Source of the DNA: Acutalibacteraceae bacterium
Lineage (GTDB): Bacteria > Bacillota > Clostridia > Oscillospirales > Acutalibacteraceae
Direction of reading: 5' to 3'
Length of the DNA stretch: 33,786 nt
NCBI GenBank assembly: GCA_045596185.1
Contig: JAZOBW010000071.1
Coordinates: 1-33,786, forward strand
This document shows, one piece after another, positions 16,202 to 33,470 of this stretch (the first letter of the stretch is position 1; every line of letters begins with the position of its first letter). Under the pieces are notes generated by a model. It was not told where the DNA came from, did not search any database, and saw only the letters and a program-made list of their open reading frames with translations. The translations under genes were made by a program, and so were the position numbers.

Positions 16202-16534
16202 ATGCCGGATATCTACACTAGAATTGAGGAACTTTGCCGAAAGAAAGGAATCAATGTAACCCAACTTTGCACAGCCTGCAATATCCCCCGTGCATCGCTG
16301 TCGGATTACAAGACGGGAAGAAAAAAAACACTGTCCGCCGAAGTACTGTCAAAAATAGCAGACTTTTTCGGTGTCAGTGTCGATTTTCTGTACGGAAAGG
16401 AACCACGCTTTGCAGATGAACAATCCCTTAAAGTTGCACTTTTCGGTGGTAGTTCCGATGTTACTGATGAAATGTGGGACGAAGTTAAACGTTATGCGCA
16501 ATATATCAAGGAGAGGAATAATGGAAACCGCTAA
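16202..16534 (+). CDS. XRE-family HTH transcriptional repressor (ImmR/DdrO-like partner of the downstream metalloprotease)
   Basis: 110 aa. IEELCRKKGINVTQLCTACNIPRASLSDYKTGRKK is a classic Cro/C1-type HTH, followed by a C-terminal tail of about 45 aa. RBS AAAGGAAG. The 3' end overlaps the next gene by 14 nt. Confidence 0.85.
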   Translation: MPDIYTRIEELCRKKGINVTQLCTACNIPRASLSDYKTGRKKTLSAEVLSKIADFFGVSVDFLYGKEPRFADEQSLKVALFGGSSDVTDEMWDEVKRYAQYIKERNNGNR

Positions 16535-16916
16535 TCTTTACCGTATTGCCGAAAATAACGGTATAGCCGTAGACCGATTTCCCCTGCCCGAAAACCGCTC
16601 ATTAGCATTTATGGATGGTGACGCTATGTATGTAGCCATCGATAAAAACATACGCGGTGCAGAAGAACGGGTGTGCCTCGCACACGAGTTAGGCCACTGC
16701 CAAACCGCAAGTTTTTACAACATATATTCACCGCTCGATGTACGCCAAAAGCACGAAAGACGTGCCGATAAGTGGGCGATTAAGGCGCTAATCCCGAAAT
16801 CGGTCTATCGTAATGCTCTTAAACGGGGATACGACAACATCTATTCCCTTGCCGAATTTTTCGGCGTAACAGCCGATTTTATGAAAAAGGCTGTTGAATT
16901 TTATAGTAATTCGTAA
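16521..16916 (+). CDS. ImmA/IrrE-family (COG2856, M78) zinc metallopeptidase
   Basis: The start is set at the ATG at 16521 after the RBS AAGGAGAGG. HExxH is present in CLAHELGHCQT. Its size and its position just after an XRE gene are typical of ImmA/IrrE. Confidence 0.8.
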   Translation: METANLYRIAENNGIAVDRFPLPENRSLAFMDGDAMYVAIDKNIRGAEERVCLAHELGHCQTASFYNIYSPLDVRQKHERRADKWAIKALIPKSVYRNALKRGYDNIYSLAEFFGVTADFMKKAVEFYSNS

Positions 16917-16947
16917 AATATCTTTTGAAACAAAGGATGTGAATAAA

Positions 16948-17895
16948 ATGCCGCAAGAAAAGGCGCCACGCAACAAAACTATAGATACAACTGTATCTGA
17001 CGGCAAACACTATCTTGACCGTTGCATAAAAATAGAAACGGTTCAAAACGATCTTGACAAAATTCTCGACAAAACCATTCATGGAAATACATTTGAAGTT
17101 TCTTCGCTTTTACCACGTGAAAGCGTTGACTTGATAATCGCAGACCCACCATATAACCTTACAAAAAACTACAATGGAACTTTATTCAAAAAGAAAAATG
17201 CCTCCGAATACGAACTATATACAAGAAAATGGATAGAAAGTATATATCCGCTCCTGAAACCCAACGGTTCTATTTATGTTTGTTGTGATTGGGAGACCAG
17301 TTTAATAATCGGAAACATTCTTAATGAATATTTTACCGTGCGTAACCGCATAACCTGGCAACGCGAAAAAGGCAGGGGTGCGAAGGATAATTGGAAAAAT
17401 GGAATGGAGGATATATGGTACGCAACAAAATCAAATACATTCACATTTAATGTAGATCGGGTTAAAATCCGCAAAAAGGTAATTGCCCCATACAAAGTTG
17501 ATGGTGTGCCAAAAGACTGGGAAGAAACCGATAACGGAAATTTCAGGGATACATACCCTTCAAATTTCTGGGATGATATTACCATTCCCTTCTGGTCAAT
17601 GCCGGAAAACACTGCGCATCCCACCCAGAAATCAGAAAAATTGTATGCCAAAATCATTCTTGCAAGTTCAAATCCTAATGACATTGTATTTGACCCATTT
17701 CTTGGTTCAGGAACAACCAGTGTTGTTGCAAAAAAACTGGGTAGACATTACATTGGAATAGAAATAGAAGACCAATATTGTCTTTGGGCAGAACAGCGGT
17801 TGGAAATGGCGGAATCGCAACGCGATATACAAGGATTTACAAATAATGTTTTTTGGGAAAGAAATACATTGAACCAACAGTCTAAACAAAAATAA
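16948..17895 (+). CDS. Beta-class N6-adenine or N4-cytosine DNA methyltransferase (PF01555-type)
   Basis: Motif IV DLIIADPPYNL lies upstream of motif I FDPFLGSGTTSVVA (order IV then I, which defines the beta class). The start is set at the ATG at 16948. Confidence 0.9.
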   Translation: MPQEKAPRNKTIDTTVSDGKHYLDRCIKIETVQNDLDKILDKTIHGNTFEVSSLLPRESVDLIIADPPYNLTKNYNGTLFKKKNASEYELYTRKWIESIYPLLKPNGSIYVCCDWETSLIIGNILNEYFTVRNRITWQREKGRGAKDNWKNGMEDIWYATKSNTFTFNVDRVKIRKKVIAPYKVDGVPKDWEETDNGNFRDTYPSNFWDDITIPFWSMPENTAHPTQKSEKLYAKIILASSNPNDIVFDPFLGSGTTSVVAKKLGRHYIGIEIEDQYCLWAEQRLEMAESQRDIQGFTNNVFWERNTLNQQSKQK

Positions 17896-17913
17896 AAATA
17901 AGGATGTGTTATT

Positions 17914-18579
17914 ATGAATCCGATCTTAAGCGACGATACCATAAAAGAAGTAGAAAATAGTATAATAAACCGGCTAAACAAACTTCCAGATTTTCAAAAT
18001 CCTCGCATCAATAACAGTCCCCGTTCTATTGGAGATACCGTTCAAGATGTGATGGGAGAAATTTTACCATCGTGTTTTCCGGAAAAATTGTTAAAAAATT
18101 TCAGCGCTGATTTTGCAAGACGAGCGATGGCAGACCTTGCTTTTTCGGATGTAGATGACAACTACTATATAGTGGATATTAAAACACACAACACATCTAC
18201 CGATTTCAATATGCCCAATCTAACCTCCGTTGAACGACTGGCGCGATTTTACGAAGATGATAAAAACTATTTTATGGTTTTACTAGTCGAATATTCTGTT
18301 GTTAATGGAGTTTTGACATTTAATAATGCCAATTTTGTTCCCATAGAAAATTTGAAATGGGATTGTCTAACTATCGGAGCACTGGGTTGGGGACAGATTC
18401 AGATTGCAAATTCAAATATTGTTAATATTGACAGAAGTCTTAACCGAGTCGATTGGATGCTTTCGCTTTGTGACGCACTTGATATTTTCTACCCAAAAGA
18501 AATAGAAAAAATAACAGCAAGAATAAATCGATTTTGTTCCGTTCGTAAATTTTGGGAAAATAAAAAGAACAATTTATAA
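17914..18579 (+). CDS. Putative type II restriction endonuclease (PD-(D/E)XK-like), partner of the methyltransferase
   Basis: 221 aa, starting 19 nt after the MTase stop. The candidate catalytic core is D...YIVDIKT (D-x(n)-D-I-K, an EcoRV-like pattern). No other recognisable domain. The gene is A+T-rich. Confidence 0.5.
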   Translation: MNPILSDDTIKEVENSIINRLNKLPDFQNPRINNSPRSIGDTVQDVMGEILPSCFPEKLLKNFSADFARRAMADLAFSDVDDNYYIVDIKTHNTSTDFNMPNLTSVERLARFYEDDKNYFMVLLVEYSVVNGVLTFNNANFVPIENLKWDCLTIGALGWGQIQIANSNIVNIDRSLNRVDWMLSLCDALDIFYPKEIEKITARINRFCSVRKFWENKKNNL

Positions 18580-24294: not shown

Positions 24295-24370
24295 CCGGGT
24301 GTGGCGCAGTTGGTAGCGTGCTTGACTGGGGGTCAAGAGGCCGCAGGTTCAAGTCCTGTCACTCGGACCA
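24295..24370 (+). tRNA. tRNA-Pro (anticodon GGG) with encoded CCA
   Basis: Manual cloverleaf. Acceptor ccgggtg/cactcgg. D-arm gcgc-agttggta-gcgt. Anticodon stem cttga/tcaag with loop cT-GGG-gg. T-arm gcagg-ttcaagt-cctgt. Discriminator A plus CCA. Confidence 0.85.
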
Positions 24371-26081: not shown

Positions 26082-29000
26082 TTATACTTTTTTAAGTATC
26101 TTTATCTTAGGGCTTTTAAGAATACCAAACGGTTTAGTGCGATATTCATAACACCAGTTCCAACCTTCGGTGCGCCACGCTTCAGGACCGATCCACTCTG
26201 TAGCGGAGTTAACAAGATGAAGTGCACCAAAACTGTTATAGCGATTTCCGAAAAGGGTAAGAGAAAGTGTGTGCTTTCCTTTTGCAACGTTCTCTATAAC
26301 CGTTTCATATGGCGGAAGAACAATTCGGTTTACACGTTTACCATCAAGTCCTACGCCGATTAGAGAACCGCGATAAAACTCGCTTTGTATTGAAACGGCA
26401 CCATCTTCCGGCATCTCAATTTCAATATCATATGTGATATTGGCACCGTAAAACGGCATACCCTGCGAAACAATATCCGAAAAACCGACCTTTTCCTGCT
26501 TTGCGGTTATCACGGCATCTGCACCCATCAGTTTTACACCGAAATCGCCAAGGATATAGCACCATTCAATATTGGTTCGTTCACCGAAAGGAACATCTAT
26601 TTCAATAACATTCTTTCCCTTTTTAATAAGAGAAAGCGGTATTTTGCTTATCGCCTCATCGGTAAAATAACCCACGATATTATTCTGAACCTTTTGTCCG
26701 TTAAGGGTAATATCTATAATGTCGGCATCCTCAACGGCGAGAAATGCATCTGTAAGTTCCAATTCACTTTCAAATTCATATTTAAGGTGCACTGTGTGCT
26801 CGGCAGGTTTGTCTGAAAGTACATAGGGCTGATTGGAATTTGGACGCATTCCAAAAATTTCCCTTGCCTTTTTAGATACACGCAAAACCTCTTCTGCACT
26901 CTGCCACTCGCCGTCGTCACAAGCGTATTCGGCACGGTCAAGAAGCAACACATTCGGTTCGCTGAGTGTATAAGGCACCGGCTTTTTAATATCAAATGCC
27001 GAAATGCACTCATACTGTGCGGAATCGGTATTCTCACAAACCGTGTCGTCAGACAATTTCAGCAAAAGGCTGGTGCAGGTGTGAAAATGCTTTTTGATAA
27101 GTGTTTTGCCGTCTTGATGTGTGTATTCGATAGGCATGATATTGCCCGACAGTGTATCATATTCGGTAGGGACAAATTCACCTTCAATAGTTATGGTAAG
27201 TTCATCACAATGCAGAGAATCCTTAACGCCGCAATACATTTCGGGATCCTTACTGTGTGCAATAAACAACCAACGGCAATCATTATCCTGACGGTAGTTA
27301 TAAATAAATCTGTCGGCCTGTCTGCCGTCATTATATGTAATCCCTATATTACGGATATCTTCCAAAGAATCTGAAAGCGACGACTTATCAAAACCGATAT
27401 TACAGCAGGCATTATACAGGTCCTCACATCCGTTTGATATAATGCCATCCATATATGTTGGCGCCTTGCCCATAAATATGACCCTACCGCCGGACTTTCT
27501 GAATCTTTCAAGAAAATCTACTGTGGTTTTGCGAAGTGTAATACAGGCAGGTACAATTATTACATCGTACTGCATTTTTCCTATCGCGCCAGGACGCTCC
27601 TCACAGGATAGTTGGGGAATAGTAGACTCACAGATAAAGTTAAAGTCGAAGTGTTCCTCCAAAAGCCACTCGGTAATATTTTTGAAGTTACTTTCGAGTG
27701 CAGCGATAGTTATAGCCGTTTGCGAATTTGGGCCCACGCTTATCCAGTAACTTTCAATCGGATGAATAACACCCAGTTTAACTATCGGTGTGCCTCGGGT
27801 AAGGGCGGTATTAAGACGTGCAAAGTGATCTTCTATATAAGGATATTCCTTATACCACGGTGACTGATAGCCTATTGCAGCAGGAAAGTCACGCTTTGCC
27901 TCACCCTTCATAGATACCCACGCAAGGTGTGGCACACGAACGGTAACACCCAAAGCCGCCTGCCAGTCGCCCTGAAGTTTATGACCCCTGAAATCAAAGT
28001 CCCAGTTGGTAACACCGTAAAGTTCGGAAAGCATACCCTCCTTGCCATACTGATGGACGGCAGACTGGGTCTGTTTTGCGGTTGTAAATTCGTGCCAGTT
28101 GCAAAGCATATCTATACCCGGTATAGTAAACTCTCCGTAACTGCGCATAGTTTCACCGCAGGTGGGTGCCTGACCGCCCAGTTGTGCTTCGCGAAGAAGA
28201 TGACCGGTCAGTGCGATACCGTTTTTATCACACCACTCACCCAACTGACCGCTGAAATTCTGTGAAAACTGATGCGCAAGAAAATCAAAATATCTGTATT
28301 TTATAATGGAATCGCTGTTATCCGCCTTTTTCCAAAAAAGTTCGGGAAGGCGGTCGAGAATATCCTCACCGTAATATTTTTGATACTCTTCTTCAAAATA
28401 GCGCGACCAACCGCACTTAATAACCCACCTGTATTCGGGGGTGGGAATTATCGCTTCACTGCCGTCCTGCATAACATTTGGCTCGTCGGTAAAGATGGCG
28501 GGTACGGTTTTATCAAAACGGTTGCCCACCTTTTCCTTATACCGCTCATGGGTAACATTTATAAACTCGGCAACCGATTCGCTGTCCATAGAGTCAAAAT
28601 AACTTCCGCCGTTATGCCACGCCGAATCCCACTCAACCTCGCAATAGGCGTACCACTTGTCGCCAAAGGCTTCATCATCAATAGAAATTCGACGACAGTT
28701 GGCAATAAAACCATCGCTGCCGATAGTAAGATCATAGGCGGCAAGAAAATATATGGTGCCTTTTTCGAGTGCTTCCTCTTTTGGAAGTGCCGATTCCACC
28801 TTATGGGGCAAAAGCACAAGCCTTTTTCTTCGAAATCTTTTGTTTTTAGTTACCTTGCCGCCGGCACCACCCGAAGGCCAACGGTCCTCGTCATAAAGCC
28901 ATGCAAGCATTTGTTCGTCTTCCGCTTTATCACAACAGGCCGCGACCATTTCCATGAACTCGTCCCCAAGGTATTCGGTAGCAAGACCGGTTCGGGAATG

Positions 29001-29171
29001 CATATGAAATCCGCCAAATCCCATCTGCTTCAAAAAGTCGATCTGACGCATAAGTTGAGCCTTATCGAGTTTGTTATTCCATGACCAGAAAGGTGTGGCA
29101 CGATATTCGCATGTTGGATTTTCAAAAAGTTCTTTGGAAAGTATTTGTTCACTATTTTTCTTATAAAGCAT
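26082..29171 (-). CDS. Large cytoplasmic glycoside hydrolase, family uncertain (possibly PF17132/GH106-related with a jelly-roll C-terminus)
   Basis: 1029 aa with no signal peptide. The N-terminal segment RATPFWSWNNKLDKAQLMRQIDFLKQMGFGGFHMHSRTGL resembles the start of a family of large bacterial glycosidases (from memory, unverified). Confidence 0.55.
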   Translation of the reverse strand: MLYKKNSEQILSKELFENPTCEYRATPFWSWNNKLDKAQLMRQIDFLKQMGFGGFHMHSRTGLATEYLGDEFMEMVAACCDKAEDEQMLAWLYDEDRWPSGGAGGKVTKNKRFRRKRLVLLPHKVESALPKEEALEKGTIYFLAAYDLTIGSDGFIANCRRISIDDEAFGDKWYAYCEVEWDSAWHNGGSYFDSMDSESVAEFINVTHERYKEKVGNRFDKTVPAIFTDEPNVMQDGSEAIIPTPEYRWVIKCGWSRYFEEEYQKYYGEDILDRLPELFWKKADNSDSIIKYRYFDFLAHQFSQNFSGQLGEWCDKNGIALTGHLLREAQLGGQAPTCGETMRSYGEFTIPGIDMLCNWHEFTTAKQTQSAVHQYGKEGMLSELYGVTNWDFDFRGHKLQGDWQAALGVTVRVPHLAWVSMKGEAKRDFPAAIGYQSPWYKEYPYIEDHFARLNTALTRGTPIVKLGVIHPIESYWISVGPNSQTAITIAALESNFKNITEWLLEEHFDFNFICESTIPQLSCEERPGAIGKMQYDVIIVPACITLRKTTVDFLERFRKSGGRVIFMGKAPTYMDGIISNGCEDLYNACCNIGFDKSSLSDSLEDIRNIGITYNDGRQADRFIYNYRQDNDCRWLFIAHSKDPEMYCGVKDSLHCDELTITIEGEFVPTEYDTLSGNIMPIEYTHQDGKTLIKKHFHTCTSLLLKLSDDTVCENTDSAQYECISAFDIKKPVPYTLSEPNVLLLDRAEYACDDGEWQSAEEVLRVSKKAREIFGMRPNSNQPYVLSDKPAEHTVHLKYEFESELELTDAFLAVEDADIIDITLNGQKVQNNIVGYFTDEAISKIPLSLIKKGKNVIEIDVPFGERTNIEWCYILGDFGVKLMGADAVITAKQEKVGFSDIVSQGMPFYGANITYDIEIEMPEDGAVSIQSEFYRGSLIGVGLDGKRVNRIVLPPYETVIENVAKGKHTLSLTLFGNRYNSFGALHLVNSATEWIGPEAWRTEGWNWCYEYRTKPFGILKSPKIKILKKV

Positions 29172-29603: not shown

Positions 29604-29641
29604 AAAAATGTGTCTTAAGCGATGCTTAAGACACATTTTTC
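29604..29641. terminator. Bidirectional terminator (copy 2 of the atgtgtcttaa..ttaagacacat hairpin)
   Basis: atgtgtcttaagc (29608-29620), gat loop, gcttaagacacat (29624-29636). It is flanked by A- and T-runs. Confidence 0.85.
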
Positions 29642-29652
29642 AGTATACAATA

Positions 29653-29796
29653 CTATTTATTTTTGCTCTTGAATATCTTGTTTAGCAATACGGTTAAAAG
29701 AATTATTACCGCGATAACTACCATTATCGCCAACATTCCTTTACCCATATAATGAAGATTATTTATAAATGCGCTTGGTTCAAATTTTTCTATCAT
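29653..29796 (-). CDS. Small (47 aa) single-TM protein, possibly an OadG-like gamma subunit; not in the supplied ORF track
   Basis: My own translation is MIEKFEPSAFINNLHYMGKGMLAIMVVIAVIILLTVLLNKIFKSKNK. The RBS AAGAGGTGA overlaps the stop of the upstream OadB-like gene. Confidence 0.45.
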   Translation of the reverse strand: MIEKFEPSAFINNLHYMGKGMLAIMVVIAVIILLTVLLNKIFKSKNK

Positions 29797-29808
29797 AACC
29801 GTCACCTC

Positions 29809-30933
29809 TTAAACATTCATAAAGAACTTCAGAATCAGTCCGCCGGCGATAACCGATGCAATCTGACCCGATACATTAACGCCCATCGAGTGCATAAGAA
29901 GGAAGTTCTGATTATCCTCTTTAAGCCCCATCTTATGAACTATTCTGCCTGCCATCGGGAATGCCGAAATACCTGCAGCACCAATCATCGGGTTAATCTT
30001 GTTTTTTGCAAAGATGTTATATATCTTTGCAAAAATTACGCCGCCTGCAGTATCAAATACGAATGCAAACAAGCCAAGTCCCATAATGAGCAGTGTTTTG
30101 GCATCTAAGAACTTTGTATAGTGCATCTGTGTTGCGATGGTTATACCCAGGAATATGGTGATAAGGTTTGCAAGAACCTTCTGTGCGGTTTCGGAAAGCG
30201 AATTAAGAACACCGCACTCCCTGATAAGGTTACCAAACATCAGGAATCCTACAAGCGATACCGACGCAGGTGCCACACATCCTGCGATAACGGTGATTAT
30301 TATCGGGAAGAGGATACGGGTAAGTTTTGAAACCTCTTTAGGCTGATATGGCATACGGATAAGGCGTTCCTTTTTAGTGGTTAAAAGTTTGATAACGGGC
30401 GGTTGAATAATAGGTACCAGCGCCATATATGAATACGCTGCAACCATTATTGCGCCCACATACTGGGATTCAAGTTTATTAGCAACAACTATAGAGGTGG
30501 GACCATCAGCAGCACCGATGATAGCAATAGATGCGGCATCCTTTATATCAAAGAATATCGCCGCCACGCATAGAGTAAAGAATATTCCGAACTGTGCCGC
30601 TGCACCGAATATCATAAGTTTCGGATTTGACAGTAACGGACCGAAATCAATCATCGCACCAATGCCGATAAACAGTATAAGCGGAAACAGTTCGTTTGCT
30701 ATACCGGCATTATATAGCACACTGAGTGCGCCCTCCTCATCCCCCTGCGTTATAGCGCCGGAAAGCGGAAGGTTGACAAGAATTGCACCAAAACCCATCG
30801 GCAAAAGCAGAGTAGGCTCCATATCCTTCTTGATGGCAAGGAATATAAGCAATCCGCCTATCGCCCACATAACGAGCATTCGCCAATCGAAATTTGTCAA
30901 TACATTTTCATACAGGATCTCTAAAAAATCCAT
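29809..30933 (-). CDS. OadB/GcdB/MmdB-family membrane protein (Na+-translocating decarboxylase beta-subunit homologue), stand-alone
   Basis: 374 aa with RBS AAAGGGGAG. The polytopic sequence (MEPTLLLPMGFGAILVNLP, GAADGPT, MIGAAGISAFPM) matches the beta-subunit family. Confidence 0.8.
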   Translation of the reverse strand: MDFLEILYENVLTNFDWRMLVMWAIGGLLIFLAIKKDMEPTLLLPMGFGAILVNLPLSGAITQGDEEGALSVLYNAGIANELFPLILFIGIGAMIDFGPLLSNPKLMIFGAAAQFGIFFTLCVAAIFFDIKDAASIAIIGAADGPTSIVVANKLESQYVGAIMVAAYSYMALVPIIQPPVIKLLTTKKERLIRMPYQPKEVSKLTRILFPIIITVIAGCVAPASVSLVGFLMFGNLIRECGVLNSLSETAQKVLANLITIFLGITIATQMHYTKFLDAKTLLIMGLGLFAFVFDTAGGVIFAKIYNIFAKNKINPMIGAAGISAFPMAGRIVHKMGLKEDNQNFLLMHSMGVNVSGQIASVIAGGLILKFFMNV

Positions 30934-30969
30934 ACATATATCTCCCCTTTACTAAAATTCGAGTAACAC

Positions 30970-31107
30970 AAAAAAGAAAAAAGACCCCGACTGCCCCACT
31001 GTGCAATCGAAGTCTTGCCCTTTAATACAGCGGCGGGTCAAAAAGACCGTACTGACGCCGGATGTAACGCACAAAGTCTTCCGTGCGCGGCTACTCCCTT
31101 CGGAAAG
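30970..31107 (-). promoter_or_regulatory. Candidate yybP-ykoY (Mn2+) riboswitch aptamer plus intrinsic terminator in the leader of the OadB-like gene
   Basis: The minus-strand RNA reads CGAAG-GGAGUAG-CCGCGCAC...GUGCG-UUACAU-CCGGCG...CGCCGCUGUAU-UAAAGGGCAAGA-CUUCG. Its hallmarks are GGGAGUAG and GCAAGAC, closed by a CGAAG/CUUCG P1 helix. The 3' P1 strand is also part of the terminator stem GACUUCGAUUG/CAGUCGGGGUC, which is followed by UUUUUUCUUUUUU. Confidence 0.6.
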
Positions 31108-31114
31108 TAATGGT

Positions 31115-31143
31115 ATTATAACATATTATTACCCATATTTCAA
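31115..31143 (-). promoter_or_regulatory. SigA-type promoter for the riboswitch/OadB-like transcript (TTGAAA-17-TATAAT on the minus strand)
   Basis: Reverse complement of tttcaa (31138-31143) and attata (31115-31120) with a 17-nt spacer. Confidence 0.6.
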
Positions 31144-31151
31144 TCATTTTC

Positions 31152-31180
31152 TTGCAAATTTGTTTGTTTTGATTTATAAT
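31152..31180 (+). promoter_or_regulatory. SigA-type promoter for mgtC (TTGCAA-17-TATAAT)
   Basis: ttgcaa at 31152-31157 and tataat at 31175-31180. It sits back-to-back with the minus-strand promoter. Confidence 0.55.
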
Positions 31181-31214
31181 TTTATATTATTATATTAGTC
31201 GGAGGTGGACTGTA

Positions 31215-31904
31215 ATGTTAAAAACATTAGAATTTGTTCTTAGCGTCATCAGCGAATTTAATATAATCTCGGTTCTGTTCCGTCTTATTCTTTCGGTAAT
31301 TATAGGCGGTGTTATCGGCAATGAAAGGGGCAAACACGGCAGTCATGCAGGACTGCGCACACATATACTGGTTTGTCTGGGTTCCACAATAACTGCACTT
31401 ACCGGTCTTTTCGTAAACGAAGCGCTGGGTATGCAGGGCGATGTTCTGCGTCTTGCCGCACAGGTAATATCGGGAATCGGTTTTCTTGGTGCCGGTATGA
31501 TAATTATTAAGGGTAGCAATATTATAACCGGTCTTACCACCGCTGCCGGTATGTGGACTACCGCCGCTATCGGTATCGCTTTAGGTTACGGTTTTTACAG
31601 TGCATCTTTTATCGGTATGTTGGCGTGTCTTTTTACCGCCCACTTCCTTACCAAACTTGAGCGCAAACGCAAGATGTCTCATCCTATTTACATCGAGGTT
31701 GACGACCCCAAAAAATCAGGCGACATCTGCAATCATATCCGCAATCTTGTTGACAATGATATGGCGCTTGAAATTGCACCTGCAAAAAGCGGTATCTCGG
31801 GTCACCTTGCCCTGTACATAACCCTTTCAAGGCCCAGAAACTTTGCCGATATCATCGAAAAAATCAAACATCTTGACGGCGTAAGTTTCGTAATCGTTGA
31901 GTAA
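31215..31904 (+). CDS. mgtC: MgtC/SapB family membrane protein
   Basis: RBS GGAGGTG. The N-terminal membrane domain carries RLILSVIIGGVIGNERGKHGSHAGLRTHILVCLGS, followed by a C-terminal ACT-like soluble domain. Confidence 0.85.
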   Translation: MLKTLEFVLSVISEFNIISVLFRLILSVIIGGVIGNERGKHGSHAGLRTHILVCLGSTITALTGLFVNEALGMQGDVLRLAAQVISGIGFLGAGMIIIKGSNIITGLTTAAGMWTTAAIGIALGYGFYSASFIGMLACLFTAHFLTKLERKRKMSHPIYIEVDDPKKSGDICNHIRNLVDNDMALEIAPAKSGISGHLALYITLSRPRNFADIIEKIKHLDGVSFVIVE

Positions 31905-32023: not shown

Positions 32024-32055
32024 ATTAACACAAAATTTTGAGAGGTTTAATTGCT

Positions 32056-32352
32056 ATGAGTAATATTCGCAATGAATCGGTGGACAGGCTGTTCAAAACT
32101 TTTCTGAATCTGGAAACCATAGAGGAATGTTATGCCTATTTTGAAGATCTGTGTACCATCAAAGAGATACAAGATATGTCACAGCGGCTTGATACCGCCA
32201 TACTTCTTGCAAAGGGACTCAGTTATCAGAAAATCACCGAGCAGGTAGATGTAAGTACCGCTACCATAGGAAGGGTAAGCAAGTGCTTCAATTACGGAAG
32301 CGGCGGTTATCGCTCTGCCATAGAAAAACTTGAAAAGGCGGAGGAAGAATAA
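32056..32352 (+). CDS. yerC: YerC/YecD-family TrpR-like DNA-binding protein (candidate histidine regulator HisR)
   Basis: The start is set at the ATG at 32056 (MSNIRNESVDRLF). LCTIKEIQDMSQRLDTAILLAKGLSYQKITEQVDVSTATIGRVSK is typical of the YerC/TrpR-like family. Its stop overlaps the hisZ start (TAATG). Confidence 0.8.
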   Translation: MSNIRNESVDRLFKTFLNLETIEECYAYFEDLCTIKEIQDMSQRLDTAILLAKGLSYQKITEQVDVSTATIGRVSKCFNYGSGGYRSAIEKLEKAEEE

Positions 32353-33470
32353 TGAACGGTTCCAATATTCCCCTTAACTTTAATGAAAAGGTCATTTTTT
32401 CACTGCGTTCGCTCTACAGTAAATGCGGATACCAACAGTACAAAATGAGCAAGTTTGAAGAATATGATCTTTATGCCCGAAACAAAGATTTTCTTATTTC
32501 GGACAGTGTTATAACCTTTACCGATACCAACGGAAAACTTATGGCGCTTAAGCCCGATGTTACCCTTTCAATAATCAAAAACATAAAAGAACAGCCAGAT
32601 TGCGTTCAAAAACTATATTACAATGAAAATGTATATCGTATTTCCAAGGGTACACGCTCGTATAAAGAGATAATGCAGATAGGTCTTGAATGTTTCGGAA
32701 ATATCGATAACTTTAACATTTGCGAGGTTATCACCCTTGCAGCACTCAGCCTTAAGAGCATCTCCGAAGAATGTGTGCTTGATATTTCGGACATTGGTCT
32801 GCTGGAGGATATAATCGACGGTTTTGAACTGCCCAAACAGGCGAAGAGTGAACTGTTCAAGCACATCGGCGAAAAGAACATTCATGAACTTATCAGCGTT
32901 TGTGCCCAACATTCGGTTCCCGAAAAGGATATCGCTGTACTTACAGGACTTATTGAAACATCAGGCAGCCCCGATACCGTTATCAACAAGATAGCAGAAT
33001 TGCTTGAAGGCAGGAATTCCTATGCCCTTTCGGTACTTTCCGATATTCTTAATGCCGTTGACAGCGATGTAAGAAATATGTTGCGAATCGACTTTTCAGT
33101 AGTAGGCGACACCAACTACTATAACGGCATTGTATTCAAAGGCTTTATTCAGGGTGTTCCCACTGCGGTTCTTTCTGGTGGACAGTATGATAAACTTATG
33201 CGCAAAATGCATCGCAAATCGGGAGCAATCGGCTTTGCAGTATATCTTGATGTTTTGGAAAGATTGCTTTGTTGCACCAATGAATACGATGTGGATATAC
33301 TTCTTCTTTACGACGATACCACTCCCCTTTCGGTTCTGAACGATTATATTAAGAATCTTGGGGACGCTGGTCGTATTATGGCACAAAGATGTGTTCCCGA
33401 AAACATCAAATACAAAAAACTCATAAAGATAAACAACGGTGAGGTGGATATTCTTGAAGACAATGCTTAA
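32352..33470 (+). CDS. hisZ: ATP phosphoribosyltransferase regulatory subunit (HisRS paralogue)
   Basis: 372 aa. Class-II aaRS-like motifs are present (LALKPDVTLS, YYNENVYR, QIGLECFG). It lies directly upstream of a short-form hisG and overlaps it. Confidence 0.85.
   Translation: MNGSNIPLNFNEKVIFSLRSLYSKCGYQQYKMSKFEEYDLYARNKDFLISDSVITFTDTNGKLMALKPDVTLSIIKNIKEQPDCVQKLYYNENVYRISKGTRSYKEIMQIGLECFGNIDNFNICEVITLAALSLKSISEECVLDISDIGLLEDIIDGFELPKQAKSELFKHIGEKNIHELISVCAQHSVPEKDIAVLTGLIETSGSPDTVINKIAELLEGRNSYALSVLSDILNAVDSDVRNMLRIDFSVVGDTNYYNGIVFKGFIQGVPTAVLSGGQYDKLMRKMHRKSGAIGFAVYLDVLERLLCCTNEYDVDILLLYDDTTPLSVLNDYIKNLGDAGRIMAQRCVPENIKYKKLIKINNGEVDILEDNA

What the first reader, a model, noticed from the sequence alone, without database searches (positions are those of the whole stretch)
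29653..31143. Mn2+ (yybP-ykoY)-like riboswitch controlling a stand-alone OadB-family membrane protein
A TTGAAA-17-TATAAT promoter lies upstream of the OadB-like gene on the minus strand. It is followed by a leader of about 140 nt with the hallmarks I associate with the yybP-ykoY Mn2+ riboswitch. These are GGGAGUAG near the 5' end, a UUACAU element, and GCAAGAC near the 3' end, closed by a CGAAG/CUUCG P1 helix. The 3' strand of P1 is shared with an 11-bp terminator stem followed by a U-tract. That is the arrangement expected for a ligand-stabilised ON switch. The regulated gene encodes a homologue of the Na+-translocating decarboxylase beta subunit. No carboxyltransferase (alpha) or biotin-carrier gene is nearby; there is only a 47-aa single-TM ORF downstream. 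The neighbours are spoIIID and a divergent mgtC. A beta subunit without its catalytic partners, under a metal-sensing riboswitch and next to mgtC, suggests this OadB paralogue has been recruited as a cation (Mn2+ or other metal) transporter rather than as part of a decarboxylase.
Basis: partly seen in the sequence, partly recalled or inferred. Interest (0 to 1): 0.65.

Follow-up and report, generated by a model that had tools for sequence, protein, structure and literature searches.

The report
Three-way-junction manganese-type riboswitch before OadB
The leader is a real, conserved metal-sensing RNA switch of the manganese (yybP-ykoY) kind, in its three-helix form already described in Streptococcus. 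What looks new is that it controls a lone sodium-pump-type membrane protein (OadB) and a tiny partner protein in many gut Clostridia.

Summary
On the minus strand lie a near-consensus promoter, a 99-nt structured leader (31104-31006), an intrinsic terminator that shares the 3' strand of helix P1, then OadB and a 47-aa one-helix ORF.

Rfam does not call the leader. RF00080, the Na+ model and the Li+ model give nothing, even at E<=10.

Comparative evidence identifies it instead:
- The same RNA precedes 38 of 80 OadB orthologues from other species, with strong covariation.
- A covariance model trained only on 60 leaders of other genes (Na+/Ca2+ exchangers, P-type ATPases and others) hits the window at 62.6 bits, E 5e-14.
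- One family member reaches the Rfam threshold for RF02617 (Streptococcus 'SSRC10').
- An orthologous leader that has a P4 hairpin gives a sub-threshold RF00080 hit.

The architecture matches the published S. pneumoniae mgtA riboswitch: L1 GGGAGUAG/AAGA, L3 UCAGUAC, and P4 replaced by UUAAA. [quoted passage not shown]

OadB is 'stand-alone' in all 80 species. It nevertheless keeps all six residues needed for Na+-coupled decarboxylation, so recruitment as a Mn2+ exporter is unproven. The mgtC adjacency is not conserved.

Verdict: a new member of a known riboswitch kind, with an apparently unreported gene association.

The parts
31115..31143 (-). sigma-70-type promoter TTGAAA-17-TATAAT with an extended -10 TG
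   Evidence: 11 of 12 matches, the best site in the region. A consensus match only; transcription was not tested.
31006..31104 (-). Aptamer of a three-way-junction yybP-ykoY-type riboswitch. P1 31102-31098/31012-31008; P1.2 31091-31089/31019-31017; P2 hairpin 31088-31067; P3.1 31066-31056/31035-31026; P3.2 hairpin 31048-31036.
   Evidence: R1 71.7 bits. Independent model R2 62.6 bits, E 4.6e-14, the only hit in the window. Covariation. Helices read and the alignment.
31092..31097 (-). 5' side of loop L1 (GGAGUA of GGGAGUAG). The 3' side is AAGA at 31016-31013.
   Evidence: Invariant in 28 of 28 aligned leaders. Corresponds to the metal-site L1 of yybP-ykoY (PMC6649816).
31049..31055 (-). L3 bulge UCAGUAC. 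Its C-A is the equivalent of L. lactis C40-A41, where the N7 of A41 binds Mn2+.
   Evidence: G, C and A of CGUCA are invariant. RF00080 aligns the equivalent stretch in L056. Roles of the residues come from PMC6649816.
31021..31025 (-). UUAAA junction in place of helix P4 (the 'UNAAA' of the three-way-junction subtype)
   Evidence: conserved as UUAAA or UGAAA in the alignment; described in PMC6649816.
30971..31016 (-). Intrinsic terminator: 14-bp stem, 8-nt loop, U-tract. Its 5' arm overlaps L1-3' and P1-3', making it the expression platform.
   Evidence: -20 kcal/mol, z -4.8; forms in the MFE of the whole leader, where P1 does not.
29809..30933 (-). OadB-family gene (374 aa), beta subunit type of the Na+-translocating decarboxylases. 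RBS GGGGAG at 30947-30942.
   Evidence: PF03977 501 bits, TIGR01109 421.8 bits. 6IVA match at E 3e-97, with D203/Y229/N373/G377/S382/R389 equivalents kept.
29653..29796 (-). 47-aa one-helix ORF ('mini-OadG'), 12 nt after the OadB stop codon, with RBS AAGAGGUGA
   Evidence: A conserved ORF follows OadB in nearly all 80 loci. 29 of 66 members hit NF040909 OadG_rel_small, best 1.4e-8. The window copy itself scores only 15.9 bits against a cut-off of 25.
29604..29640 (-). Terminator-like hairpin that closes the two-gene operon
   Evidence: 17 pairs, loop of 3.

Best explanation
The leader is a transcriptional ON riboswitch of the yybP-ykoY (Mn2+) family, in its three-way-junction form. Helix P4 is replaced by UUAAA, as in the S. 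pneumoniae mgtA riboswitch.

How it works:
- Without ligand, the 14-bp terminator forms. It uses the AAGA of loop L1 and the 3' strand of P1, and transcription stops before OadB.
- When a divalent cation bridges loops L1 (GGAGUA/AAGA) and L3 (UCAGUAC), helix P3 docks on P1. The cation is Mn2+ by analogy; Ca2+ also binds the characterised relative.
- Docking holds P1 closed, the terminator cannot form, and the OadB-plus-47-aa-ORF operon is transcribed.

Shown here: the RNA family identity, the conserved structure, and the mutually exclusive terminator.

Inferred: the ligand and the direction of the switch.

The product is most likely a Na+-translocating membrane module that belongs to the cell's divalent-cation efflux response. 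It could, for example, remove the Na+ that Na+/Ca2+(Mn2+) exchangers let in. This last step is inference from residue conservation and gene associations.
For: Family identity:
- The RNA is present upstream of 38 of 80 OadB orthologues plus the window.
- On a structure-blind MAFFT alignment, 85% of cells pair, against 35-48% when partners are slid. Twenty of 27 pairs show compensatory change.
- On 76 distinct sequences from other genes, 91% pair against 29-44%, with a covariation score of 0.66 against about 0.1. That alignment is fitted to the model.
- R2, trained only on leaders of non-OadB genes, hits the window at 62.6 bits, E 4.6e-14.
- Family member L131, which lies before a 922-aa P-type ATPase, scores 68 bits on RF02617, whose gathering score is 56.
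- L056, an orthologous leader that has a P4 hairpin, gives RF00080 20.8 bits, E 3e-4. L1, P2, P3 and L3 are aligned.

Match to the published relative: the three-way junction, UNAAA, invariant AGA, the C-A in L3 and the following terminator (PMC6649816).

Switch architecture: the terminator forms in the MFE of the full leader, whereas P1 forms when the aptamer is folded alone.

Gene associations: in 120 metagenome instances the same RNA precedes about 46 Na_Ca_ex genes, about 34 type-II P-type ATPases, 6 OadB, 5 TerC, and single or double cases of NptA+PhoU, CitMHS and AI-2E.

OadB: the six coupling and Na+-site residues are kept in 80-81 of 81 orthologues.
Against: - RF00080 does not detect the window leader at all, even at E<=10. 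None of 40 related loci reaches its gathering score. RF02617 gives the window only 18.8 bits.
- No binding, termination or expression data exist for this RNA. No usable RNA-seq run was found.
- 42 of 80 orthologues lack the RNA, so it is dispensable for the gene.
- The role of OadB is not shown. No Na+/Ca2+ exchanger lies in the window.
- The energy source of a beta subunit without alpha and biotin-carrier partners is unknown.
Confidence: 0.7

Rival explanations
1. This OadB paralogue, with its mini-gamma subunit, works without a carboxyltransferase and has been recruited as an exporter of Mn2+ (or Ca2+ or another metal). That would match most genes under this riboswitch.
For: - No alpha or biotin-carrier gene is found next to the gene in the window or in any of 80 species, and there is no conserved neighbour at all.
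- The small subunit is only a membrane helix with a basic tail. It lacks the Ala/Pro linker and the C-terminal region that tie alpha to beta in OadG/GcdD (PMC7145394).
- Most genes downstream of this RNA family encode cation exporters.
- OadB has a CPA/AT-superfamily transporter fold (title and abstract of PMC8396727).
- Operon partners, where present, are secondary transporters: AI-2E in L005, L007, L018 and L080; NptA in L074; PiT in L069.
Against: - D203, Y229, N373, G377, S382 and R389 equivalents are kept in essentially all 81 orthologues. Identity to Salmonella OadB is high across the core. This pattern is expected for a working Na+-coupled carboxybiotin decarboxylase.
- Partner genes could lie elsewhere in the genome, which could not be searched here.
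- No OadB-family member is known to carry divalent metals (my knowledge).
Confidence: 0.2
2. The physiological ligand of this three-way-junction subtype in gut Clostridia is Ca2+ rather than Mn2+. The regulon would then be a Ca2+ efflux and Na+-cycle regulon.
For: - The commonest downstream genes in the sample are NCX-type Na_Ca_ex exchangers and type-II (Ca2+-ATPase-like) P-type ATPases. TerC is rare, and no MntP-type exporter was identified among the downstream genes annotated.
- The characterised three-way-junction member binds Ca2+ more tightly than Mn2+ (PMC6649816).
Against: - In the same study Mn2+ was the much better activator of read-through, half-maximal at 0.23 mM against 1.1 mM, and Mn stress induced the gene.
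- The A41-equivalent adenine, which gives Mn2+ selectivity, is invariant here.
Confidence: 0.25
3. The leader is a Na+ (DUF1646) or Li+ (nhaA-I) riboswitch. Na+-I riboswitches are known to precede oxaloacetate decarboxylase genes.
For: Na+-I riboswitches do associate with oxaloacetate decarboxylase genes (PMC9337991; PMC5737381).
Against: - RF03071 and RF03057 give no hit on the leader, even at E<=10.
- The sequence and structure are those of yybP-ykoY.
Confidence: 0.03
4. The leader is not a ligand sensor. It is a structured leader with a constitutive or protein- or pause-controlled terminator.
For: No binding data exist. About half of the orthologues do without it.
Against: The unpaired loop nucleotides L1, L3 and UNAAA are invariant while the helices covary. 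That pattern is the signature of a tertiary binding site. The family contains an experimentally validated member type.
Confidence: 0.05

Closest known systems
S. pneumoniae mgtA riboswitch (SN44; three-way-junction yybP-ykoY; the type Rfam files as sRNA RF02617 'SSRC10')
   Same: - L1 GGGAGUAG...AAGA.
- L3 bulge with C-A.
- P1/P1.2, P2 and P3.1/P3.2 helices.
- P4 replaced by UNAAA.
- A terminator that overlaps P1-3', giving an ON switch.
   Different: - The downstream gene is OadB plus a mini-OadG, not a PII-type ATPase.
- The window reaches only 18.8 bits on RF02617.
- P2 is longer, and P3.1 carries a small internal loop.
- The host is an uncultured Clostridia (Oscillospirales-like) bacterium.
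Canonical yybP-ykoY Mn2+ riboswitch (RF00080; L. lactis yoaB, E. coli mntP/alx, B. subtilis yybP/ykoY)
   Same: The metal-site loops L1 and L3, the P1-P2 and P3 legs, and ON regulation of membrane transport genes.
   Different: - Four-way junction with P4, against a three-way junction here.
- The Rfam model does not score the window.
- Some OadB-orthologue leaders (L025, L056, L059, L068, L073) do carry a P4-like hairpin. L056 gives 20.8 bits.
Na+-I riboswitch (DUF1646 motif, RF03071)
   Same: It also precedes oxaloacetate-decarboxylase-type genes, and it activates by anti-termination (PMC9337991).
   Different: An unrelated RNA fold and sequence; no hit here.
Na+-translocating biotin decarboxylases (OadABG, MmdABCDE, GcdABCD)
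   Same: The beta subunit is a full-length, high-scoring family member with the catalytic and Na+-site residues. It is followed by an OadG-related one-helix protein.
   Different: - No alpha or biotin-carrier genes lie nearby in 80 species.
- The gamma-like protein lacks the linker and the alpha-binding C-terminus.
- The gene is under a metal riboswitch.

Membership tests
yybP-ykoY (Mn2+) riboswitch, RF00080 | Reaches the Rfam RF00080 gathering score (45 bits) | tested here: not met
   No hit in the window at the gathering score or at E<=10. None in 40 related loci. The best is 20.8 bits, E 3e-4, for L056.
yybP-ykoY (Mn2+) riboswitch, RF00080 | Conserved L1 internal loop: GGGAGUAG on the 5' side and AGA on the 3' side | tested here: met
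   31098-31091 and 31015-31013. Invariant in 28 of 28 leaders.
yybP-ykoY (Mn2+) riboswitch, RF00080 | L3 bulge in P3 with the C-A pair (C40-A41 in L. lactis) that contacts the metal | tested here: met
   UCAGUAC at 31055-31049. C and A are invariant. Aligned to the RF00080 L3 in L056.
yybP-ykoY (Mn2+) riboswitch, RF00080 | Helices P1/P1.2, P2 and P3.1/P3.2 supported by covariation | tested here: met
yybP-ykoY (Mn2+) riboswitch, RF00080 | Four-way junction with helix P4 | tested here: not met
   UUAAA (31025-31021) stands where P4 would be. Literature accepts three-way-junction members.
yybP-ykoY (Mn2+) riboswitch, RF00080 | Binds Mn2+ and switches gene expression | not testable with these tools
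   Needs in-line probing, ITC or termination assays.
Three-way-junction yybP-ykoY subtype (S. pneumoniae mgtA type; RF02617) | P4 replaced by UNAAA, followed by a terminator that overlaps P1-3' | tested here: met
Three-way-junction yybP-ykoY subtype (S. pneumoniae mgtA type; RF02617) | Scores with a covariance model of the subtype | tested here: met
   R2 (60 non-OadB leaders, including L131, which passes RF02617 at 68 bits) gives 62.6 bits, E 4.6e-14. RF02617 itself gives only 18.8 bits against a gathering score of 56.
Na+-I (RF03071) and Li+-I (RF03057) riboswitches | Covariance-model hit | tested here: not met
   No hit at E<=10 on 30900-31230.
Na+-translocating decarboxylase beta subunit (PF03977 / TIGR01109) | Family model above its cut-off, over the full length | tested here: met
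   501 bits (cut-off 31.6) and 421.8 bits (cut-off 190.6).
Na+-translocating decarboxylase beta subunit (PF03977 / TIGR01109) | D203, Y229, N373, G377, S382 and R389 (K. pneumoniae numbering) present | tested here: met
   They correspond to D143, Y169, N314, G318, S323 and R330. Kept in 80-81 of 81 orthologues. The roles of these residues are from my knowledge of the Dimroth-laboratory mutagenesis.
Na+-translocating decarboxylase beta subunit (PF03977 / TIGR01109) | Works with a carboxyltransferase (alpha) and a biotin carrier | tested here: inconclusive
   None in the 33.8-kb window or in +/-3 kb of 80 loci. The rest of the genome could not be searched.
OadG-related small subunit (NF040909) | Model hit above the cut-off (25 bits) | tested here: inconclusive
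   The window copy scores 15.9 bits, E 0.0099. 29 of 66 orthologous small ORFs match at E<=0.01, best 1.4e-8.

The most novel reading that the evidence does not exclude
The three-way-junction yybP-ykoY subtype, largely missed by Rfam RF00080, is a widespread Ca2+/Mn2+ sensor in gut Clostridia. Its regulon couples divalent-cation efflux to the sodium cycle. Within that regulon, a conserved OadB plus mini-OadG pair works without carboxyltransferase or biotin partners as a self-standing cation transporter. It would carry out Na+ extrusion, or M2+/Na+ exchange. That would be a new function for the decarboxylase beta-subunit fold.
Probability: 0.2. Interest if true: 0.7.

Novelty: new member of a known kind. 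Interest (0 to 1): 0.5.

Why it matters
- It adds a gene class, OadB plus a mini-OadG, to the regulon of the Mn2+-type riboswitch. No paper in the searchable library links the two.
- It gives a concrete handle on a very conserved 'orphan' beta subunit. The subunit is 74-92% identical across the close relatives retrieved from many uncultured Clostridia species, and its partners and role are unknown.
- It exposes an annotation gap. The three-way-junction clade is common in gut metagenomes, yet RF00080 does not call it, and its Streptococcus form is filed as an sRNA (RF02617).
- Its gene associations are mainly Na+/Ca2+ exchangers and Ca2+-type ATPases. They reopen the question of whether Mn2+ or Ca2+ is the physiological signal.

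Tried and rejected
- **Rfam at the gathering score.** Searched the window and 40 related loci. No riboswitch was called for the leader. One P-type-ATPase leader, L131, reached the threshold of RF02617, which Rfam files as an sRNA.
- **Rfam at E<=10 on the leader.** Only weak sRNA hits (SSRC10, rli60). This rejected the Na+-I and Li+-I models.
- **RNAalifold on the MAFFT alignment.** It gave a poor consensus because the hairpin lengths vary. I replaced it with a hand-derived structure, which was tested.
- **mgtC as a functional partner.** Rejected: 3 of 80 loci. spoIIID is adjacent in 0 of 80.
- **Conserved neighbours of OadB.** None found; the largest cluster holds 5 of 80.
- **Transcript evidence.** No run holds the window. 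Runs for L005 are contigs of unknown kind, so termination could not be read.
- **Papers not held.** Dambach 2015 and Price 2015 are not in the library. I therefore could not check whether their gene lists include OadB.
- **Profile of the small ORF against PDB sequences.** Only chance-level hits.
Full report
**1. What is in the sequence**

All features lie on the minus strand.
- A promoter-like site, TTGAAA-17-TATAAT, at 31143-31115. It matches 11 of 12 positions, has TG before the -10, and is the best site in the region.
- A leader.
- A terminator-like hairpin at 31016-30981 with a U-tract. It folds at -20 kcal/mol, z -4.8.
- An RBS (GGGGAG, 30947-30942) and an ORF at 30933-29809.
- A second ORF, 12 nt after that ORF's stop codon, at 29796-29653 (47 aa from its ATG).
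- A closing hairpin at 29640-29604.

The long ORF is a full-length OAD_beta protein: PF03977 at 501 bits and TIGR01109 at 421.8 bits. The neighbours are SpoIIID and a divergent MgtC. Pfam scans of the other large ORFs of the window found housekeeping genes only: PolC, IspG, RseP, Dxr, CdsA, PyrH, DinB, Ffh, TrmD and others. None is a carboxyltransferase or a biotin carrier.

**2.

Rfam 15 finds only a tRNA in the window at gathering scores. At E<=10 on 30900-31230, RF00080, RF03071 and RF03057 give no match. The only hits are weak ones to two 'sRNA' families, one of them RF02617 SSRC10 at 18.8 bits.

**3. Comparative evidence shows a real, conserved RNA**

- A scan of one genome per species returned 80 loci whose OadB is 74-85% identical to the window's. 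All are uncultured Clostridia, mostly labelled Oscillospiraceae, Acutalibacteraceae or Ruminococcaceae.
- About half carry GGAGUAG, then GCRAGAC 70-85 nt later, then a terminator, upstream of OadB.
- I tested a hand-derived structure (P1, P1.2, P2, P3.1 with a small internal loop, P3.2) on a structure-blind MAFFT alignment of 28 leaders.
  - It pairs 85% of cells, against 35-48% when partners are slid by 1-3 columns.
  - Compensatory changes occur in 20 of 27 pairs.
  - The covariation score is 0.395 against about 0.1.
- The loop nucleotides GGGAGUAG, C-G-U-C-A, U..AAA and AGAC are invariant or nearly so.
- Covariance model R1 finds the RNA in 38 of 80 loci and once in the window.

**4. What family it is**

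- A pattern taken from the invariant parts was searched in metagenome contigs.
- Only 6 of these precede OadB. About 46 precede Na_Ca_ex (PF01699) proteins of roughly 300-340 aa. About 34 precede type-II P-type ATPases and 5 precede TerC. Others precede NptA+PhoU, CitMHS and AI-2E family transporters.
- R1 recognises 98 of 100 of them. On 76 distinct sequences the structure pairs 91% of cells against 29-44% for slid partners. That alignment is fitted to the model.
- Model R2 was built only from 60 leaders of non-OadB genes. It hits the window at 31104-31006 with 62.6 bits, E 4.6e-14, as the only hit in 33.8 kb. It finds the same 38 OadB loci.
- None of 20 such metagenome loci reaches RF00080. 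L131, which lies before a 922-aa ATPase, scores 68 bits on RF02617. The RF02617 consensus shows the same elements.
- An OadB-orthologue leader that carries an extra hairpin at the P4 position (L056) gives a sub-threshold but significant RF00080 match of 20.8 bits, E 3e-4. It aligns through L1, P2, P3 and L3.
- Martin et al. [quoted passage not shown]
  - P4 is replaced by an invariant UNAAA, followed by a terminator.
  - The riboswitch has invariant AGA in L1 and C-A in L3.
  - It binds Ca2+ and Mn2+, and Mn2+ is the stronger activator of read-through.
- The window has UUAAA at exactly that place (31025-31021).

I conclude that the leader is a member of this three-way-junction subtype. The true L3 is UCAGUAC (31055-31049).

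**5. Mechanism**

In the MFE of the whole leader, P2 and P3 form as in the model and the 14-bp terminator forms, but P1 does not. The aptamer folded alone does form P1. The terminator's 5' arm is AAGA (L1 3' side) plus CUUCG (P1 3' strand) plus 5 more bases. Metal-dependent docking of L3 on L1 would hold P1 closed and block the terminator. That makes an ON switch, like the validated relatives. The ligand and the direction are inferred, not shown.

**6. The regulated genes**

- OadB followed by a 40-60-aa ORF with one membrane helix is a conserved two-gene unit in nearly all 80 loci.
- 29 of 66 small ORFs hit NF040909, 'OadG-related small transporter subunit'.
- They lack the Ala/Pro linker and the C-terminal region that connect alpha to beta in OadG/GcdD (PMC7145394).
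- No neighbour is conserved across loci. mgtC is adjacent in 3 of 80 loci plus one close relative.
- Where there are operon partners, they are transporters.
  - An AI-2E family gene follows the pair in L005, L007, L018 and L080.
  - NptA+PhoU precedes OadB in L074.
  - In L069 the riboswitch precedes an ORF that, from its sequence, looks like a PiT-type phosphate transporter, then a PhoU/DUF47-like ORF (neither scanned against Pfam), then OadB and the small ORF.
  - A Na_Ca_ex gene sits just upstream of the riboswitch in L059.
- Against a loss of decarboxylase function: the equivalents of D203, Y229, N373, G377, S382 and R389 of enterobacterial OadB are all present, and they are kept in 80-81 of 81 orthologues.

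The evidence therefore favours retained Na+ chemistry. A Na+-extruding module induced together with Na+-coupled divalent-cation efflux fits both observations. A direct metal exporter remains possible. A normal decarboxylase whose partners are encoded elsewhere cannot be excluded.

**7. Novelty**

The riboswitch kind and its three-way-junction form are published. The link to OadB was not found in the searchable literature. The 2015 founding papers were not available to check. The finding is a new member of a known kind, with a new gene association and a useful annotation lesson.

Noticed in passing
L081-L200 (metagenome loci), e.g. L131:4050-4155: Rfam RF00080 misses a large three-way-junction clade of Mn2+-type riboswitches: 0 of 40 loci reach its gathering score. 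RF02617 'SSRC10 Streptococcus sRNA 10' has the same consensus and looks like the Streptococcus form of this riboswitch rather than an sRNA.
   Followed up: partly
L081-L200: In this pattern-limited sample, the commonest genes after the three-way-junction riboswitch are NCX-type Na_Ca_ex exchangers (about 46) and type-II P-type ATPases (about 34). TerC is rare (5). This hints at Ca2+ and the sodium cycle as much as at Mn2+.
   Followed up: partly
L069:1113-4260: Here the riboswitch precedes a four-gene operon: a PiT-like phosphate/metal-phosphate transporter, a PhoU/DUF47-like protein, OadB and the small ORF. The first two assignments are from reading the sequences, not from a Pfam scan.
   Followed up: partly
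L025, L056, L059, L068, L073 (leaders near 2800-2950): Some OadB-orthologue leaders carry an extra hairpin where P4 would be. Both three-way and four-way forms therefore occur before the same gene.
   Followed up: partly
window 26082-29171 (-): A 1029-aa ORF next to spoIIID has no Pfam match at E<=0.01.
   Followed up: no
window 32038-33470 (+): A Trp-repressor-like small protein (PF01371) overlaps by one base a 372-aa HisRS-like protein (PF13393, HisZ-like).
   Followed up: no
window 16371-18579 (+): An M78 (IrrE-like) peptidase, an N6/N4 DNA methylase and an unknown 221-aa ORF lie in a row, next to a DinB-type polymerase and two unknown small ORFs. This may be a mobile or defence islet.
   Followed up: no
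window 24295-24367 (+): A tRNA gene at 63.5 bits, the only Rfam gathering-level hit in the window.
   Followed up: no
L046:64-231 and L025:4831-5037: A lysine riboswitch and a cobalamin riboswitch lie in the flanks of two OadB loci. They are unrelated to the finding.
   Followed up: no
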